The translations under genes and the position numbers were made by a program. From a phage, in the sequence record PV806339.1: DNA of 60,026 nt; one strand, given 5' to 3'. The notes beneath the pieces are model-generated. The model ran no database searches. It saw only the letters and a program-made list of their open reading frames with translations, and had not been told where the DNA came from. This document shows, piece after piece, positions 2,367 to 52,020 of this stretch (position 1 is its first letter; every line of letters begins with the position of its first letter).

Positions 2367-4431
2367 GAGCATCGGGCAGATTATCAGTTCGGTGGCCGAG
2401 CAGTTACGGCCGCCAATGCGCATGACGGTGGCCGACGCGGCCGCCAAGTATCGCTACGTCAACCAACCCGGCGCATACGTCGGGGATTGGCTTAACTCGA
2501 CGACGCCGTACATGGTCGAGCCGATGAACATGATGAACAGCCGGGCGTACGACAAGATGGCCTTTGTCGGCCCGGCGCAGTCCGGTAAAACCGATGCGCT
2601 GATCCTGAATAGCATTGTCTATTCGGTGAAAGTTGACCCGATGGATCTGATGGTCTACTGCCCGACGTCAACGGCCGCGCGCGACTTCTCGATGCGACGT
2701 GTAGACCGTCTTCACCGCCATAGCCCGAAGGTGGGCGAAATGCTGATGAAGAACCGCGACGCCGACAACAAATTCGACAAACACTACGTCACAGGCATCA
2801 TCCTGACGTTGAGTTATCCGTCAGTAACCGAACTGGCCGGGCGTCCCGTTGGCCGCATCATCATCACCGACTACGACCGTATTGACGACGACATCGGTGG
2901 CGACGGTAACGCCTTCGACCTCGCATCAAAACGTACGACGACCTTCGGGTCGTTTGCCATGTGTGCAGCCGAGTCATCACCATCGCGCCCGATTAAAGAC
3001 CCAAGCTGGATTAAGCGCACGCCCCACGAAGCCCCGCCGTGTGACGGGATTGTCGGCCTGTACAACCGAGGCGACCGCCGCCGCTGGAAATGGCCGTGTC
3101 CGCATTGCGACCAGTATTTCGAAGGTACCTTCCAGCTTTTGAAGTGGAACACGAAAGACGCCGATGGCAACCCTCTAACCAACCTCGAAAAGTCGGAGAC
3201 AGTGCGCATGGCCTGTCCACACTGCGGCTGCGAAATAGACCCGGTTGATAAGTATGAAATGAACCTGTGGGGGATGTGGGTGCCGGAAGGCTGTCATGTC
3301 AACGAGTTGGGCCAACTGGCCGGGGTACCGATGCGCTCGTCGTTCGCGTCCTTCTGGCTTCGCGGAACGGCGGCCGCATTCATCACATGGCAGAAACTGG
3401 TTCTGAACTACCTCGATGCGATGGATGACTACGAGCGTACGATGTCCGAAGAGTCCTTGAAGAAATTCTGGAACAACGACATGGGCGAACCGTACGTGCC
3501 GAAGGCGATCGAGACGGTACGCGTTCCGGAAGCGCTGAAAGCCCGCGCCGAGAAGTGGCCGGAACAGACGGTGCCGAAGAATGTGCGGTTCTTGGCGGCC
3601 ACGGTGGACGTGCAGAAGCATAGCTTTGAAGTGTCGGTGCATGGCGTGGCCCCCGGCTACCCATTCGACACCTACCTGATCGACCGCTTCAACATCACGA
3701 AATCGCGCCGACTCGATGACGATGGCGACCCGAAAATCCTGCACCCGGGCGCGTACCTCGAAGATTGGGATCTCATTGAAACCGAAGTGATGAACAAGAC
3801 GTATCCGCTGTCCGATAATTCGGGCCGTTCGCTGCCGATCAAGATGACCGCGTGCGACTCCGGTGGTGAAGCCGGGGTAACGGGCAACGCGTACGAATTC
3901 TTCCGGAAACTGCGGAAGGAAGGGAAAACCGGGCGCTTCTGTCTGGTGAAGGGCGACCCGAAAGCGAACAACCCGCGCACCCGTGTAGCGCTACCGGACT
4001 CCAACCAGAAAGACAAGAAAGCCATCGCACGCGGCGACGTTCCGGTGCTGATGATTAACTCGAACGTGATGAAAGACAGCCTGAACGGCCGACTGGACGT
4101 CGTGGAGCCGGGCAAAGGCATGTACCACATCCCGGACTGGATGGGCGACGCGGTATTCGCCGAACTGTGTACGGAGACGCGTGACGAGAAAGGCTGGCAC
4201 AACCCATCCCACGCCCGAAACGAAACGTGGGACTTGGCATATTATTTATTGGGAATTTGCGTCAGTGGCCGCGTGCTCGGGATTGAGCAGATAGATTGGG
4301 ATAACCCGCCATCATGGGCGGCCGAGTGGGACGATAACAGCATGGTTATTTTACCGCAGAGCGATGAACCTATTGATGCACCGAAAGATACCGAATACAG
4401 TTTCGAGAAACTCGCAATGGCGTTAGCATAG
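2350..4431 (+). CDS. terminase large subunit, lambda GpA-like (693 aa)
   Basis: Walker A VGPAQSGKT; zinc-finger-like CPHCDQYF...CPHCGCEID; size and position match GpA-family terminases. Confidence 0.85.
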   Translation: MTMKFKSIGQIISSVAEQLRPPMRMTVADAAAKYRYVNQPGAYVGDWLNSTTPYMVEPMNMMNSRAYDKMAFVGPAQSGKTDALILNSIVYSVKVDPMDLMVYCPTSTAARDFSMRRVDRLHRHSPKVGEMLMKNRDADNKFDKHYVTGIILTLSYPSVTELAGRPVGRIIITDYDRIDDDIGGDGNAFDLASKRTTTFGSFAMCAAESSPSRPIKDPSWIKRTPHEAPPCDGIVGLYNRGDRRRWKWPCPHCDQYFEGTFQLLKWNTKDADGNPLTNLEKSETVRMACPHCGCEIDPVDKYEMNLWGMWVPEGCHVNELGQLAGVPMRSSFASFWLRGTAAAFITWQKLVLNYLDAMDDYERTMSEESLKKFWNNDMGEPYVPKAIETVRVPEALKARAEKWPEQTVPKNVRFLAATVDVQKHSFEVSVHGVAPGYPFDTYLIDRFNITKSRRLDDDGDPKILHPGAYLEDWDLIETEVMNKTYPLSDNSGRSLPIKMTACDSGGEAGVTGNAYEFFRKLRKEGKTGRFCLVKGDPKANNPRTRVALPDSNQKDKKAIARGDVPVLMINSNVMKDSLNGRLDVVEPGKGMYHIPDWMGDAVFAELCTETRDEKGWHNPSHARNETWDLAYYLLGICVSGRVLGIEQIDWDNPPSWAAEWDDNSMVILPQSDEPIDAPKDTEYSFEKLAMALA

Positions 4432-36020: not shown

Positions 36021-36262
36021 GGCGGCTCGTCCGGGTCGGAATAGATTTCGAACCCGGCGTCCTTGATCCAGCCGATAAGCATGGCGCGGGATTTATCGGA
36101 CAGCGGGTGGTCGTTGTGTAACAGCGCGACCGTAGTGGTGGTCAGCCCGGCCGATGCGGCCCGGCGGATAAGACGCTCTACCTCGCCACGTACTTCAATC
36201 GCTTCGGCGGTGTGGTGATCGGTAGCAGCTTTATACATTTCATCGGCAGTGATAGTCAGCAT
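35981..36262 (-). CDS. hypothetical protein (93 aa)
   Basis: ATG at 36262 preceded by GGGGG RBS, leader hairpin and promoter. Confidence 0.5.
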   Translation of the reverse strand: MLTITADEMYKAATDHHTAEAIEVRGEVERLIRRAASAGLTTTTVALLHNDHPLSDKSRAMLIGWIKDAGFEIYSDPDEPPCTLQILWGRAAA

Positions 36263-36306
36263 GTTGCCCCCTAAAGTAAAAATCCCCGTTGTTGCCTTCG
36301 GGGATA

Positions 36307-36335
36307 ATATAGGTTATACACGCGACGTATGTCAA
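36307..36335 (-). promoter_or_regulatory. sigma70-like promoter with conserved extended spacer (- strand)
   Basis: On - strand: TTGACA (36335-36330), 17-nt spacer TACGTCGCGTGTATAAC, -10 CTATAT/TATATT. Confidence 0.55.
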
Positions 36336-36342
36336 ACAGTTT

Positions 36343-36855
36343 CTAAGACTTTCTTTTCCGGGCGTGCTCCAGTCGATCACCGTGGCCCTTCTCGACCATG
36401 AAATCGCGGGTCTGTTTGTGCAGGTTGGCGATCGTCTCCTTCGTTTTCCGCCAGCGCGCCACTAACCCTTCGCGCACTTCCCGTTCGCGGAACAGGACGG
36501 CCAAGTCCGTCGCGGTGATGTCGTACCCTTCGCACGCGGCCAAAACTCCGGCCTTGAATTCGTAGAACAGGCTTTGGATCTCCCGGAATTCGGCCTCGGT
36601 TACGATCTCGATATTGACCGTTTTCCCTTCACCGATGTCGTCCTCGGTAAACAGGCACCCGGCTTCGCCAATGGCGCGGCCATCGTCCTTCCGGTAGCGC
36701 GTATTCCCTACGATGATCTGCGTCGGCGTGGTGCGCTCTACGCGTCGTTTCACGGCGAAGGTTACTTCCGGGCTGTACCCGATACGAATGCTGTTACGCT
36801 CCAGTGTCATGTCGCCAGTTTCGAGGTGTCCGAATCTCAATTTTTTATCGGCCAT
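36343..36855 (-). CDS. hypothetical protein (170 aa)
   Basis: ORF. Confidence 0.5.
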   Translation of the reverse strand: MADKKLRFGHLETGDMTLERNSIRIGYSPEVTFAVKRRVERTTPTQIIVGNTRYRKDDGRAIGEAGCLFTEDDIGEGKTVNIEIVTEAEFREIQSLFYEFKAGVLAACEGYDITATDLAVLFREREVREGLVARWRKTKETIANLHKQTRDFMVEKGHGDRLEHARKRKS

Positions 36856-37091
36856 TCTGCGTATTCTCCCTTCGGTAATTCGTCAGTCACGTCGCGCTCG
36901 GCCCATTTCAGGAACGCTTCGCGGGTGCAACTTGGATAGTGTCGGCCAAAGCCTACGACCGGGCCGTCATACTGGATGTGCGTGGCACCGATGTACAGGA
37001 TGGTGCGGTCGTTCACCAGTCCGCTGCGGTTCTGCGGCCGTTTACCGCGATAGGTGCGGCCGACTTTAAGTTTTAACGCTTCATCGGCCAT
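36837..37091 (-). CDS. hypothetical protein (84 aa)
   Basis: ORF. Confidence 0.4.
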   Translation of the reverse strand: MADEALKLKVGRTYRGKRPQNRSGLVNDRTILYIGATHIQYDGPVVGFGRHYPSCTREAFLKWAERDVTDELPKGEYAEWPIKN

Positions 37092-37326
37092 CGGTGTCCA
37101 CCTCGACTTCGAACGTGCGCGGAACGGTCATGGTCAGCACGTCATTCTCGGTGAACGGTGACAGCGGTTCGTCGCCCGGCTGGAAGCGCAGCGTCACGCT
37201 GCCGACGTTGTGATACGTGATATAGCGAAGGCGGAACTGCTCGCCGAAGATGGTCGCGAGTACGCCCGGCTTAACGTCTCCTGCGGGAATTTTCATGGTC
37301 ATAGTCTCCAGTCTAACGGCTCCCAT
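37081..37326 (-). CDS. hypothetical protein (81 aa)
   Basis: ORF. Confidence 0.4.
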   Translation of the reverse strand: MGAVRLETMTMKIPAGDVKPGVLATIFGEQFRLRYITYHNVGSVTLRFQPGDEPLSPFTENDVLTMTVPRTFEVEVDTDGR

Positions 37327-37493
37327 TGGCCGTCTCGTTTGATGTAGCAGCCGCTTAACGGGCTGTATTTGGTTGGTAGTTCGGTCTGGACGCTGACGTC
37401 GTTACACCCGATCGCCGCGCCCACACGGCCAATAACAAACAGCACACCGCAGATAATCAATACAAACAGCGTTAGCGCAGCGATCTTCTTCAT
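37299..37493 (-). CDS. small membrane/secreted protein (64 aa)
   Basis: N-terminal hydrophobic segment KKIAALTLFVLIICGVLFVIG. Confidence 0.4.
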   Translation of the reverse strand: MKKIAALTLFVLIICGVLFVIGRVGAAIGCNDVSVQTELPTKYSPLSGCYIKRDGQWEPLDWRL

Positions 37494-37503
37494 GGTGGCC
37501 CCT

Positions 37504-38322
37504 TTATTCCTTCGGTGGATTTGATTGGTGGCGATTTAGCCAGATGACAATCCCGGCAGTATAATTGATCACGCCGAGCAACTCCCTAACCCTTTGGTCA
37601 TGCGTTGGCAGGTTGACGCCTTCTACGACCTTCTTGCACACCTGATAGACCAAGCCGAGCGGGCTACCGATCAGGTCGGAAATAGCGTTCATCGGCTGCT
37701 GGTGGAAAGGCAGGTCGTTTGCGTGGCGTTCCCGCCCTTTACCATACGCGGCTTGCGTCAGCGCATCATGCAGCACTTTGACTAATTCGGAATAATCGTT
37801 GCTGTCTTTGACGTCCCGGAATTCGTATTTCCATGACCGGGGGGCCGAAGGTGCCACGGCTTCCGGCGCGACGAGGGCTTCGTTAAGCGGCCAGCCCTGC
37901 GCGAAGGAGAACATGATGTAATTCATTGCGTCGATGTACTGATTCTCTTCGAGACAACGACGAATGGCGTCGGAACATTGCTTCGGCCAGTCCGGCTGCA
38001 TCCATCCCAATTCCAGTCCCGGGTTTTTGCGCTCGAACTGCACCAGACGGTCAAGCATGTAGCCGAAAGTCTTCTCGGCCTGTTCAACCGTTGGCGCGCT
38101 CAGTTTAGGGCGGCGCAGCACGATGACCGTCTCGGCGTCGGCGGCTTTCGGGATGGCGATCTGATTGTCCATCATGGAATTGATAAGTTCGAGAACGTGG
38201 TCGGTCGCGTCGTCGTCCGTTTCAAAGTCGTCCATGTCGAGGTTCAGTGCGTTCATCACTGAATTGCGGAAACGCTGCGCGGATGGCTTGCCAGCGTGCT
38301 TTTGTTTTGATGCGTCTACCAT
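37504..38322 (-). CDS. hypothetical protein (272 aa)
   Basis: ATG at 38322 preceded by leader hairpin and promoter. Confidence 0.5.
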   Translation of the reverse strand: MVDASKQKHAGKPSAQRFRNSVMNALNLDMDDFETDDDATDHVLELINSMMDNQIAIPKAADAETVIVLRRPKLSAPTVEQAEKTFGYMLDRLVQFERKNPGLELGWMQPDWPKQCSDAIRRCLEENQYIDAMNYIMFSFAQGWPLNEALVAPEAVAPSAPRSWKYEFRDVKDSNDYSELVKVLHDALTQAAYGKGRERHANDLPFHQQPMNAISDLIGSPLGLVYQVCKKVVEGVNLPTHDQRVRELLGVINYTAGIVIWLNRHQSNPPKE

Positions 38323-38361
38323 AATAAAAAACTCCCGTTGGTGGATTAACCTTCGGGAGTA

Positions 38362-38390
38362 ATATTAATTACACATGTCGCGTGTGTCAA
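38362..38390 (-). promoter_or_regulatory. sigma70-like promoter with conserved extended spacer (- strand)
   Basis: On - strand: TTGACA (38390-38385), spacer CACGCGACATGTGTAAT (17), -10 TAATAT (38367-38362). Confidence 0.55.
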
Positions 38391-38399
38391 ACGCTTTCT

Positions 38400-39086
38400 T
38401 TAAATCTCGTCCCACATCTTGATCCAGCGGTTCCGGATCTTGGCCGATACGTTAGCCAGTGGCGCGCCGATTTCCAGTAGCGTTTCACGGTCGATATACT
38501 CGTTGGGGTGAATGCGGTCACTCTCCGGGTCGAAGATGTGGATGGCCGCGCCGAACCCGGCTGACGTGATTTCGCTGCTGCCTTCCTTCGGCCGGAACCA
38601 GACTGGCGGTTCAAACCCGATGCGCCCTTTGATGAAGATGGTACGCGTGGCGATAGCGTCCGGCCACCAGCTTTCTGATGTCGCGGACTTGGTCAGCCAG
38701 ATGGTTCCCGCACCTTTGGCCCGTTCTTCGTCGGCCTTGCGCATGATGTGCGTCATCCCGGTCAGGTGATCTTTCCCGGCGCGCTTCTGGCTGTAAGGGG
38801 GGTTAGCGTAGGCCCAAACGCGGGTCTTCTGGTCGAACCCGTCGCTGGCGTGGATCTCGGCCAGACGTTTTGACCAGTCCTGCTTTAACGCATTGTCTTC
38901 GGCGGTGAAGAAGCGCTGACATTTGGCGTTCTGGCCGTCGGTGAACAGGTCAAGCACGATTGGCCCGTACAGCTTGTTAATCGCTTGAAACAGCCATTCC
39001 GGCGTACGCCATTGGTCGCCGATCATCTTTGGTTCGTGTTCGTCCATGTTTTTCATGGCGTTGAGTGCATCAACATACTGGCTCAT
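38400..39086 (-). CDS. phage-type N6-adenine DNA methyltransferase (228 aa)
   Basis: WRTPEWLF motif and catalytic NPPY (ANPPYS) characteristic of N6A methyltransferases. Confidence 0.7.
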   Translation of the reverse strand: MSQYVDALNAMKNMDEHEPKMIGDQWRTPEWLFQAINKLYGPIVLDLFTDGQNAKCQRFFTAEDNALKQDWSKRLAEIHASDGFDQKTRVWAYANPPYSQKRAGKDHLTGMTHIMRKADEERAKGAGTIWLTKSATSESWWPDAIATRTIFIKGRIGFEPPVWFRPKEGSSEITSAGFGAAIHIFDPESDRIHPNEYIDRETLLEIGAPLANVSAKIRNRWIKMWDEI

Positions 39087-41553: not shown

Positions 41554-41582
41554 AATATTAGTCGTACACGCGACGTACGTCA
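41554..41582 (-). promoter_or_regulatory. sigma70-like promoter with conserved extended spacer (- strand)
   Basis: On - strand: TTGACG (41582-41577), spacer TACGTCGCGTGTACGAC (17), -10 TAATAT (41559-41554). Confidence 0.55.
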
Positions 41583-41720
41583 ATAACTTTATTCGGGGCA
41601 AAAGAAAGCCCGCGTAAAGGGATTGCGGGCTTTTGGAAGGTGGCATCCGAAGATTACCACTGGCTTAAAGCGGACAACGCAGGAGCCGATAAGGAAGCAC
41701 TATGCCGAGTCCGCAGTTAA

Positions 41721-44869: not shown

Positions 44870-44898
44870 ACAATAGTTCTACACGCGACGTATGTCAA
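44870..44898 (-). promoter_or_regulatory. sigma70-like promoter with conserved extended spacer (- strand)
   Basis: On - strand: TTGACA (44898-44893), spacer TACGTCGCGTGTAGAAC (17), -10 TATTGT (44875-44870). Confidence 0.55.
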
Positions 44899-45493: not shown

Positions 45494-45522
45494 TTGACGC
45501 ACGCCGCGTATATCATTTACAT
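45494..45522 (+). promoter_or_regulatory. sigma70-like promoter with conserved extended spacer (+ strand)
   Basis: TTGACG (45494-45499), spacer CACGCCGCGTATATCAT (17), -10 TTACAT/TACATT; followed by CCCTTCGGGGG hairpin. Confidence 0.5.
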
Positions 45523-45587
45523 TTAAATTCCCTTCGGGGGACGGGGCAAAAAGTCCCGGCGATAAACTAACTTTATGAGGTGTCACG

Positions 45588-48127: not shown

Positions 48128-48157
48128 TTGACGCACGCCGCGTATATCATCTATTAT
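48128..48157 (+). promoter_or_regulatory. sigma70-like promoter with conserved extended spacer (+ strand)
   Basis: TTGACG (48128-48133), spacer CACGCCGCGTATATCAT (17), -10 CTATTA/TATTAT; followed by CCCTTCGGGGG hairpin. Confidence 0.55.
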
Positions 48158-48218
48158 TAAATTCCCTTCGGGGGCCGGGGGCAATGGGGCCGACGGTTAT
48201 CAAAACAGGTACATAAAA

Positions 48219-50637: not shown

Positions 50638-50648
50638 ATTGCCTTTCT

Positions 50649-50846
50649 GATATACGCGGCGTGCGTTGGTGTGCCGTGTATCGGGCCTATGGTGCGCCGC
50701 TGTAGTTGATATACGCGGCGTGCGTATGGCGGCCCGTCCTGCTTTCTTCCTTCCTGATATACACGACGTGCATCAATGCGGCCTTATGTGCGCGCTATGC
50801 CGTATGGCGGCCCGCTATGGTGCTGCATGATATACGCGGCGTGCGT
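50649..50846. repeat. four copies of the promoter-core motif in reverse orientation (GATATACGCGGCGTGCGT)
   Basis: Copies at 50649-50666, 50708-50725, 50755-50775 (variant), 50829-50846; reverse complement of the spacer core of the 45494 and 48128 promoters; no matching -10 on the - strand. Confidence 0.8.
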
Positions 50847-51307
50847 TGGTGTGCGGCTGTATATGGCTATCTATTCCCCTTTCTATGGTATCCCCTGCTA
50901 TATGGTGTGACGGGGCGTTATTGTATGCCCTTATTTCGGCCGCTATGGGGGCTAGGCGGGGCGATCGTGGTGTAAGGTATGCCTACCTATTACGATCTAT
51001 CTTGCGAGGCGTGGCGGGCGGCTGAGAAAGAATTACGGTCACGATTTCAAAAAGGTACTTACCCGCCAGTCGGTCGGCCCGGGGGTGCGCAGAGCCGCTT
51101 TCTCGGAAAATGGGCCGGATCTGCCATAGCCCCGCTTTGCGAAATCAATAACTTAGCCGAAAAACCGAATTTCTCCCGTAGGGAGTCTCCAAATCGCGGT
51201 GGTGACGGGGGTGCGGGCGGAACGGCGCTTTAGCCCCGCAATCGGTTGATTGTATTACTGTTTTACCCGGTGGGCGGGTGCTGACCAAGTCCACGGCAGC
51301 AGTATCA

Positions 51308-51995: not shown

Positions 51996-52020
51996 AAGGC
52001 CGGATTTCCCGGCCTTTTTA
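51996..52020. terminator. bidirectional Rho-independent terminator between convergent genes
   Basis: Stem AAGGCCGG / CCGGCCTT with loop atttc; A-run upstream and T-run downstream. Confidence 0.7.

What the first reader, a model, noticed from the sequence alone, without database searches (positions are those of the whole stretch)
36265..38361. Leader hairpins with U-tracts between promoter and start codon of two - strand genes
Downstream of the 36335 promoter the leader reads ATCCCCG-aaggcaacaa-CGGGGAT-TTTTT before RBS GGGGG and ATG at 36262, which is terminator-like (possible attenuator). Downstream of the 38390 promoter the leader reads CTCCCG-(16 nt)-CGGGAG-TTTTTT and the 3' arm CGGGAG is the only Shine-Dalgarno-like sequence before ATG at 38322, so the hairpin would sequester the RBS. 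Both suggest post-initiation control of these early genes.
Basis: seen in the sequence. Interest (0 to 1): 0.5.

Follow-up and report, generated by a model that had tools for sequence, protein, structure and literature searches.

The report
Promoters nested inside upstream terminators
The two "leader hairpins" in this Chi-like phage are most likely the terminators of the preceding gene blocks, each with the next block's promoter tucked just upstream so that its own transcripts skip the hairpin; phage phiX174 has the same layout, so this is tidy but ordinary.

Summary
The window is a Chi-like siphophage (Chivirus). The sequence features are real. Two near-consensus sigma-70 promoters on the - strand (TTGACA-17-TAATAT at 38390; TTGACA-18-TATATT at 36335) are each followed by a 7-bp GC-rich hairpin, a T-tract and the next start codon.

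In both, the 5' arm begins 0-1 nt after the -10 hexamer. The expected start site, 7-8 nt after the -10, is therefore the G that closes the 5' arm. The promoter's own mRNA should lack that arm and be unstructured with a free Shine-Dalgarno. Only RNA read through from the upstream genes can fold the terminator.

The most likely function is a terminator-promoter overlap that marks early transcription-unit boundaries, not a leader attenuator. The layout matches phiX174 pA/TH, where the annotated start site lies inside the terminator's 5' arm and the gene A Shine-Dalgarno lies in the 3' arm. It also matches the Salmonella tufB-secE type "operon concatenation".

The module is conserved across four Casjensviridae genera with compensatory stem changes, and relatives' GenBank records already annotate the homologous hairpin as a terminator. 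No start-site data exist for these phages, so the central step is inferred. Verdict: new member of a known kind, modest interest.

The parts
38385..38390 (-). Junction A: -35 hexamer TTGACA, 9 nt after the Dam gene stop codon (38402-38400)
   Evidence: Dam assignment
38371..38387 (.). Junction A: palindromic operator-like site (AYRYACG-N3-CGTRYRT) overlapping the -35 hexamer and most of the spacer
   Evidence: 11 sites in the window against 0.64 expected
38362..38367 (-). Junction A: -10 hexamer TAATAT (17-nt spacer)
38354..38360 (-). Junction A: 5' arm ACTCCCG, which is also the promoter's discriminator; predicted start site G38354 (8th nt after the -10; plausible range 38355-38353)
   Evidence: start-site rule from PMC5730371; inferred, not measured
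38338..38353 (-). Junction A: 16-nt loop with an inner 3-bp helix GGU/ACC flanked by a 2x2 internal loop
   Evidence: the inner G-C pair covaries to A-U in Redjacvirus
38331..38337 (-). Junction A: 3' arm CGGGAGT, which contains the only Shine-Dalgarno (GGGAG 38336-38332) for the gene starting at 38322
38323..38331 (-). Junction A: T-tract TTTTTTATT abutting the ATG at 38322-38320
36330..36335 (-). Junction B: -35 hexamer TTGACA, 7 nt after the stop codon 36345-36343 of the 170-aa gene
36316..36332 (.). Junction B: palindromic operator-like site overlapping the -35 hexamer and most of the spacer
36306..36311 (-). Junction B: -10 hexamer TATATT (18-nt spacer)
36299..36305 (-). Junction B: 5' arm ATCCCCG, starting 0 nt after the -10; predicted start site G36299 (7th nt after the -10)
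   Evidence: inferred
36282..36288 (-). Junction B: 3' arm CGGGGAT (10-nt loop 36298-36289 lies between the arms)
36273..36281 (-). Junction B: T-tract TTTTACTTT
36267..36271 (-). Junction B: separate Shine-Dalgarno GGGGG for ATG 36262-36260, outside the hairpin
41600..41630 (-). Comparison site: conventional terminator (GCCCGC-11-GCGGGC + TTTCTTTT) placed upstream of the sister promoter P41583 (-35 at 41583-41578). Same unit-boundary role in the ordinary order

Best explanation
Each hairpin plus T-tract is the intrinsic terminator of the preceding - strand early transcription unit. Junction A ends the P41583 unit after Dam. Junction B ends the P38390 unit after the 170-aa gene. The sigma-70 promoter of the next unit sits between the upstream stop codon and the terminator, so the terminator's 5' arm coincides with promoter positions about -6 to +1. 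RNA polymerase arriving from upstream transcribes both arms, forms the hairpin and releases at the U-tract just before the next start codon. If it reads through at junction A, the next gene's Shine-Dalgarno stays buried in the stem. Polymerase that initiates at the nested promoter starts at the last base of the 5' arm. Its RNA cannot form the hairpin, so it continues with an unstructured leader and a free Shine-Dalgarno. The result is compact insulation between successive units. All of these units are driven by one promoter family that shares one operator. What is shown: the sequence anatomy, stability beyond chance, conservation, covariation and the phiX174 parallel. What is inferred: the start site, actual termination and its efficiency.
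For: (1) Geometry: the 5' arm begins 1 nt (A) or 0 nt (B) after the -10. The start-site rule gives G38354 and G36299 (PMC5730371). Folding from each possible start shows the hairpin is gone for starts at or beyond nt 6-7, and the own-transcript leaders are no more structured than shuffles (z +1.3 and -0.8). (2) Unit architecture: the only - strand terminator-like sites in the early region are 41630-41600, 38360-38331 and 36305-36282, each paired with a family promoter and each after a co-directional stop codon. (3) Conservation: the same promoter-hairpin-T-tract module sits at the syntenic junctions in Chivirus, Enchivirus (Enc34), Redjacvirus and Yonseivirus, and in Serratia phage Smarc5, whose record gives no genus. 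blastn matches only the intergenic module in these phages. (4) Structure is under selection: 100% of stem cells are paired and three pairs carry compensatory changes. A G.U wobble works only on the sense RNA. Loop length varies from 10 to 16 nt, which argues against a protein-binding palindrome. Redjacvirus junction B has a different 10-bp stem and tetraloop at the same 0-nt offset. (5) Precedent with a mapped start: phiX174 reads TTGACA-17-TTTCAT-GCCTCCAA-atc-TTGGAGGC-T6-ATG. The RefSeq start site at 3962 is the 7th nt after the -10, inside the 5' arm, and SD GGAGG lies in the 3' arm. (6) GenBank records of phages Siskin and Soft annotate the homologous hairpin as 'terminator' with the RBS inside it.
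Against: No start-site or 3'-end mapping exists for any Chi-like phage, so the key step rests on a rule. The loops (10 and 16 nt) are longer than in typical efficient terminators. The built-in scanner missed both sites. A published ARNold run on two Chi-like phages found no terminators (PMC9783114). Siskin's annotators flagged junction A but not junction B. In Redjacvirus junction B, a transcript starting at the predicted site could still form a 6-bp hairpin (-6.5 kcal/mol) abutting the U-tract, so exemption of the promoter's own transcripts may not be universal. Most stem positions are invariant, so covariation rests on about two independent events.
Confidence: 0.7

Rival explanations
1. Leader attenuator and RBS-sequestering hairpin acting on the promoter's own transcripts.
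For: The hairpin and U-tract lie between the -10 and the ATG. The SD sits in the 3' arm at junction A. In Redjacvirus B a residual hairpin could form in the promoter's own transcript. A conserved DNA element lies between -35 and -10, where lambda Q binds.
Against: The full 5' arm would be transcribed only if initiation occurred 1-2 nt after the -10, outside the known 6-9 nt range. No better alternative -10 exists. There is no antiterminator alternative fold, leader peptide or Rfam family. Four of the six promoters with the same spacer element have no terminator. That element is a palindrome also found four times in a non-coding region, which fits a dimeric repressor or initiator better than a Q-type site.
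Confidence: 0.1
2. The main role is post-transcriptional rather than termination. The hairpin would protect the 3' end of the upstream mRNA, mark a processing site, or silence translation of the downstream gene on read-through transcripts, while most polymerases read through.
For: The long loops suggest modest termination efficiency, and standard predictors disagree. At junction A the SD is occluded only in read-through RNA.
Against: Junction B has its SD outside the hairpin yet keeps the hairpin and T-tract. [quoted passage not shown]
Confidence: 0.12
3. No dedicated function. The inverted repeat would be a by-product of a conserved promoter cassette that spreads by recombination among mosaic phages.
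For: The module is more conserved than the flanking genes. In about 40 Chi-like phages homology to this window stops 7 nt after the ATG. Yonseivirus carries a hybrid of the A and B forms.
Against: Compensatory changes, a strand-specific G.U wobble and a non-homologous stem at the same position in Redjacvirus all indicate selection on pairing. Folding is far beyond shuffles.
Confidence: 0.05

Closest known systems
phiX174 pA promoter / TH terminator overlap (H-A intergenic region)
   Same: The order is stop codon, TTGACA, 17-nt spacer, -10, hairpin 5' arm immediately after the -10, T6, then ATG. The gene's SD lies in the 3' arm (as at junction A). The annotated start site is 7 nt after the -10, inside the 5' arm. 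Hairpin dG is similar, -12.8 against -11 and -14.
   Different: phiX174 has one such junction on a circular ssDNA genome, an 8-bp stem and a 3-nt loop. Here there are two junctions per dsDNA genome and 10-16-nt loops. The promoters also carry a palindromic operator, and junction B has its SD outside the hairpin. The start site here is predicted only.
[quoted passage not shown] 2019, PMC6735719)
   Same: The upstream unit's terminator overlaps the downstream unit's promoter. The layout is conserved over long evolutionary distance. Polymerase load on the terminator lowers initiation at the overlapped promoter.
   Different: That is a bacterial chromosome, not a phage. The exact register of promoter and hairpin was not compared here, and no expression data exist for Chi.
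Promoter-proximal terminators with antitermination (lambda PR'-tR'/Q) and classical leader attenuators
   Same: A terminator lies a short distance downstream of a promoter and ahead of the first gene.
   Different: In those systems the whole hairpin lies downstream of the start site and a dedicated antitermination device exists. Here the 5' arm is upstream of or at +1, and no alternative fold or factor site was found.
5'-terminal stabilising stem-loops (ompA type)
   Same: A stable hairpin lies close to the mRNA 5' end.
   Different: That type requires the hairpin to sit within a few nt of the 5' end of the transcript. Here the predicted start removes the 5' arm. The two + strand sister promoters (45494, 48128) may have this type instead.

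Membership tests
Intrinsic (Rho-independent) terminator | GC-rich stem-loop more stable than chance | tested here: met
   7-bp stems with 5 G-C pairs; -11.0 and -14.3 kcal/mol; z -3.5 and -4.0; found in the enriched scan set
Intrinsic (Rho-independent) terminator | U-tract directly abutting the 3' base of the stem | tested here: met
   T6 (A) and T5 (B) begin within the last stem pair; conserved in all homologues
Intrinsic (Rho-independent) terminator | Short loop (typically 3-8 nt) | tested here: not met
   Loops are 16 nt (A, partly closed by an inner GGU/ACC helix) and 10 nt (B). The built-in scanner and a published ARNold run miss them. This is a typical rather than strictly defining feature.
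Intrinsic (Rho-independent) terminator | Lies downstream of a co-directional gene with no other terminator in between | tested here: met
   The hairpin starts 39 nt (A) and 37 nt (B) after the upstream stop codon; there are no other - strand terminator-like sites between 41600 and 36282
Intrinsic (Rho-independent) terminator | RNA 3' ends produced at the U-tract | not testable with these tools
   No transcriptome for Chi-like phages was found
Terminator-promoter overlap (phiX174 pA/TH type) | Sigma-70 promoter located between the upstream stop codon and the terminator hairpin | tested here: met
   TTGACA-17/18-TAnnnT at 10-11 of 12 matches, starting 7-9 nt after the stop codon
Terminator-promoter overlap (phiX174 pA/TH type) | Hairpin 5' arm begins immediately after the -10 hexamer | tested here: met
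   Offset 1 nt (A) and 0 nt (B). Offsets are 0-1 nt in Enc34, Redjac, Stilesk, PSTCR9, Soft, KPN N137 and Smarc5, and 0 nt in phiX174.
Terminator-promoter overlap (phiX174 pA/TH type) | Transcription start lies inside or after the 5' arm, so the promoter's own transcripts lack the hairpin | not testable with these tools
   Predicted from the 7-bp, Y(-1)R(+1) rule and fold tables. It is annotated for phiX174 at 3962.
Terminator-promoter overlap (phiX174 pA/TH type) | Downstream gene's SD within the 3' arm, with the U-tract next to the start codon | tested here: met
   Met at junction A (GGGAG 38336-38332, ATG 38322). Junction B differs: it has a separate SD at 36271-36267.
Leader attenuator / promoter-proximal regulated terminator | Complete terminator hairpin encoded downstream of the transcription start | tested here: not met
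   This would need a start 1-2 nt after the -10, and the best -10 assignments leave no such option. The test rests on a predicted, not a measured, start site.
Leader attenuator / promoter-proximal regulated terminator | Competing antiterminator fold, leader peptide, or ligand/protein-binding RNA element | tested here: not met
   Leaders from the predicted start site are unstructured, there is no Rfam match, and there is no ORF between the promoter and the ATG

The most novel reading that the evidence does not exclude
The nested arrangement may be a terminate-and-restart device. Polymerase that releases its RNA at the U-tract would stay on the DNA, slide back about 30 bp to the promoter it has just crossed, and re-initiate. 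Read-through transcription (SD buried, unit boundaries blurred) would thereby be converted into fresh, translatable transcripts. The output of each unit would also be coupled to traffic from the unit upstream and to the shared operator. Post-termination sliding and re-initiation have been demonstrated for hairpin terminators in single-molecule work, as cited in bioRxiv 10.64898/2026.02.12.705533. Promoter occlusion by terminating polymerases is documented for tufB-secE. Neither was tested here.
Probability: 0.1. Interest if true: 0.6.

Novelty: new member of a known kind. Interest (0 to 1): 0.3.

Why it matters
The result corrects how these intergenic regions should be read. They are unit boundaries, not attenuators. 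This gives a concrete transcription map for the leftward early region of Chi-like phages: four units, from P44898, P41583, P38390 and P36335, separated by three terminators. Those genomes currently have no promoters annotated in the records examined. It also shows that the phiX174-style promoter-in-terminator design recurs in a family of dsDNA siphophages, twice per genome and across genera. That is useful for annotation pipelines, which tend to discard terminators sitting "in a 5' UTR". It is also useful to anyone engineering these flagellotropic phages, because deleting or moving a gene at these junctions would remove both a terminator and a promoter.

Tried and rejected
- **RNA families:** Rfam at gathering thresholds over the whole window, and at E <= 10 over 36200-38450, gave nothing relevant.
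- **Literature on Chi transcription:** searches for start-site or transcriptome data on Chi or Casjensviridae found none.
- **Alternative promoters:** I looked for -10/-35 assignments that would place the start upstream of the hairpin (TATAAC in B, TAATTA/AATTAA in A). They have wrong spacing, lack the critical T, and are not conserved, so I rejected them.
- **Protein-binding palindrome:** rejected because arm spacing varies from 10 to 16 nt among homologues and a G.U wobble works only in RNA.
- **Q-type antitermination:** I considered a Q-type site in the promoter spacer. I rejected it because the element is a palindrome present at promoters without terminators and in a non-coding cluster.
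- **Neighbouring proteins:** Pfam and PHROGs searches gave only Dam and domains of unknown function, and no regulator candidate.
- **5' stabiliser reading:** rejected for these two promoters on start-site geometry.

Full report
**What the window is.** The 2.8 kb around the finding is 95-98% identical to Salmonella phage Chi and about 100 relatives. The window's length of 60,026 bp matches Escherichia phage Kompetensportalen (LuPh5), a Chivirus (PMC12671086). The genes concerned lie on the - strand in a block that includes Dam methyltransferase.

**Checking the observation.**
- Junction A: Dam stop codon (38402-38400), TTGACA (38390), 17 nt, TAATAT, T, ACTCCCG, 16 nt, CGGGAGT, T-run (six T in all), ATT, ATG (38322).

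The promoters are among the three best sigma-70 matches in 28-47 kb. The hairpins fold at -11.0 and -14.3 kcal/mol with z-scores of -3.5 and -4.0. In a scan of my own that allows loops up to 20 nt, they are two of 12 hairpin-plus-T-tract sites with dG <= -10, against 1-6 in shuffled sequence.

**The point that changes the interpretation.** The 5' arm starts 1 nt (A) or 0 nt (B) after the -10 hexamer. Bacterial RNA polymerase prefers to start 7 bp downstream of the -10, at a purine preceded by a pyrimidine. Pyrimidine-rich discriminators push the start further downstream, not upstream (PMC5730371). In A the sequence after the -10 is T-A-C-T-C-C-C-G-A, and in B it is A-T-C-C-C-C-G-A. The favoured starts are therefore G38354 (position 8) and G36299 (position 7), each the last base of the 5' arm.

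Folding from every possible start shows the hairpin is already lost for starts at position 6-7 or later. The resulting leaders are no more structured than shuffled sequence (z +1.3 and -0.8). The promoter's own mRNA should therefore have no terminator and a free Shine-Dalgarno. Only RNA that began further upstream contains both arms.

**Context within the genome.** These two promoters belong to a family of six that share a conserved spacer: P44898, P41583, P38390 and P36335 on the - strand, and P45494 and P48128 on the + strand. The - strand early region has just three terminator-like sites. One is a conventional terminator at 41630-41600, placed upstream of P41583. The other two are the hairpins of the finding, placed just downstream of P38390 and P36335. 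Each follows a co-directional stop codon. The simplest reading is four transcription units separated by three terminators, with two boundaries compacted by putting the next promoter ahead of the terminator.

**Comparative evidence.** In Enc34 (Enchivirus), Redjac, PSTCR9 and Stilesk (Redjacvirus), Soft and KPN N137 (Yonseivirus) and Serratia phage Smarc5, blastn matches little beyond the intergenic module. The module keeps the same register: -10, 0-1 nt, 5' arm.

On an alignment of 16 distinct variants, every stem cell pairs. Two adjacent pairs are swapped compensatorily between this window's junction B (AUCCCCG/CGGGGAU) and the others (ACUCCCG/CGGGAGU). An inner pair changes G-C to A-U in Redjacvirus. 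PSTCR9 has a U.G wobble that works only on the sense RNA. Loop length varies from 10 to 16 nt, which a dimeric DNA-binding site would not tolerate.

Redjacvirus junction B carries an unrelated 10-bp stem with a tetraloop and T6 at the same 0-nt offset. The structure and its position are therefore selected, not merely the sequence.

Junction A is triply constrained, as discriminator, stem and SD, and it is almost invariant. Junction B has its SD outside the hairpin and is the one that varies.

In about 40 Chi-like phages, homology to this window ends 7 nt past the ATG at junction A. The module therefore also sits at a mosaic joint.

**Comparison with known systems.** The GenBank records of phages Siskin and Soft already annotate the homologous hairpin as "terminator" with the RBS inside it, but they annotate no promoter.

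The closest described system is phiX174 pA/TH. [quoted passage not shown] I read the RefSeq sequence directly: TTGACA-17-TTTCAT-GCCTCCAA-atc-TTGGAGGC-TTTTTT-ATG. The annotated transcription start at 3962 is the 7th nt after the -10 and the 7th nt of the 8-nt 5' arm. The gene A Shine-Dalgarno, GGAGG, lies in the 3' arm, and the hairpin dG is -12.8. This is the same design as junction A.

[quoted passage not shown] There, polymerase load on the upstream terminator depresses initiation at the overlapped promoter (PMC6735719).

**Caveats.**
- No start-site or 3'-end data exist for these phages.
- The loops are long for efficient terminators, and predictors disagree.
- In Redjacvirus junction B, a transcript from the predicted start could still form a 6-bp hairpin next to the U-tract.
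- Covariation rests on about two independent events.

**Verdict.** The attenuator and RBS-sequestration reading is only partly right, because those effects should fall on read-through RNA rather than on the promoter's own transcripts. The feature is a new member of a known kind, a terminator-promoter overlap. I put confidence at about 0.7 and interest at about 0.3.

Noticed in passing
window 36316-36332, 38371-38387, 41564-41580, 44879-44895, 45497-45513, 48131-48147, and 50650-50666, 50709-50725, 50757-50773, 50830-50846: A 17-bp palindrome, AYRYACG-N3-CGTRYRT, overlaps the -35 hexamer and most of the spacer in all six early promoters. It recurs four times in a roughly 600-bp non-coding region (50640-51250) just after a strong terminator, and that region is also rich in TATGG(C/T)G repeats. 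The window has 11 sites against 0.64 expected. Related spacers (ACAYACG-N3-CGTRTGY) occur in Enc34, Redjac and Soft promoters. This suggests one dimeric DNA-binding protein that controls all early promoters and also binds an origin-like or titration region. No candidate protein was identified.
   Followed up: partly
window 45524-45560 (+) and 48158-48199 (+): The two + strand sister promoters are followed by TAAATT-CCC-TTCG-GGG, a UUCG-tetraloop hairpin beginning about 7 nt after the -10, and then a second GC-rich hairpin. Neither has a T-tract. These could be true 5'-terminal stabilising stem-loops, unlike the - strand junctions. The folds reach -16 kcal/mol but are only weakly better than shuffles.
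   Followed up: partly
L021 9060-9150 (+); also L012, L014, L015, L017, L028, L035, L037, L041-L046, L050, L052 (IMG/VR contigs unrelated to Chi): An unrelated family of viral contigs has TTGACA-17-TAATAT followed at 0 nt by TAAATGCG...CGCATTTA-T7. This is a 56-nt compound hairpin (-23.3 kcal/mol, z -5.9) lying between a 345-aa gene and the next gene on the same strand. It may be an independent case of a promoter placed directly ahead of a terminator stem, or it may be a small structured RNA.
   Followed up: partly
window 38313-38322 (junction A, just past the ATG): In about 40 Chi-like genomes (iEPS5, ST-101, phage 37 and others), nucleotide homology to this window stops 7 nt after the start codon, so the first gene of the P38390 unit is swapped for another allele. 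The promoter-terminator module acts as a mosaic boundary.
   Followed up: no
window 51996-52016 (both strands): A symmetric hairpin, AAGGCCGG-N5-CCGGCCTT, has T-runs on both strands between convergent genes. It looks like a bidirectional terminator.
   Followed up: no
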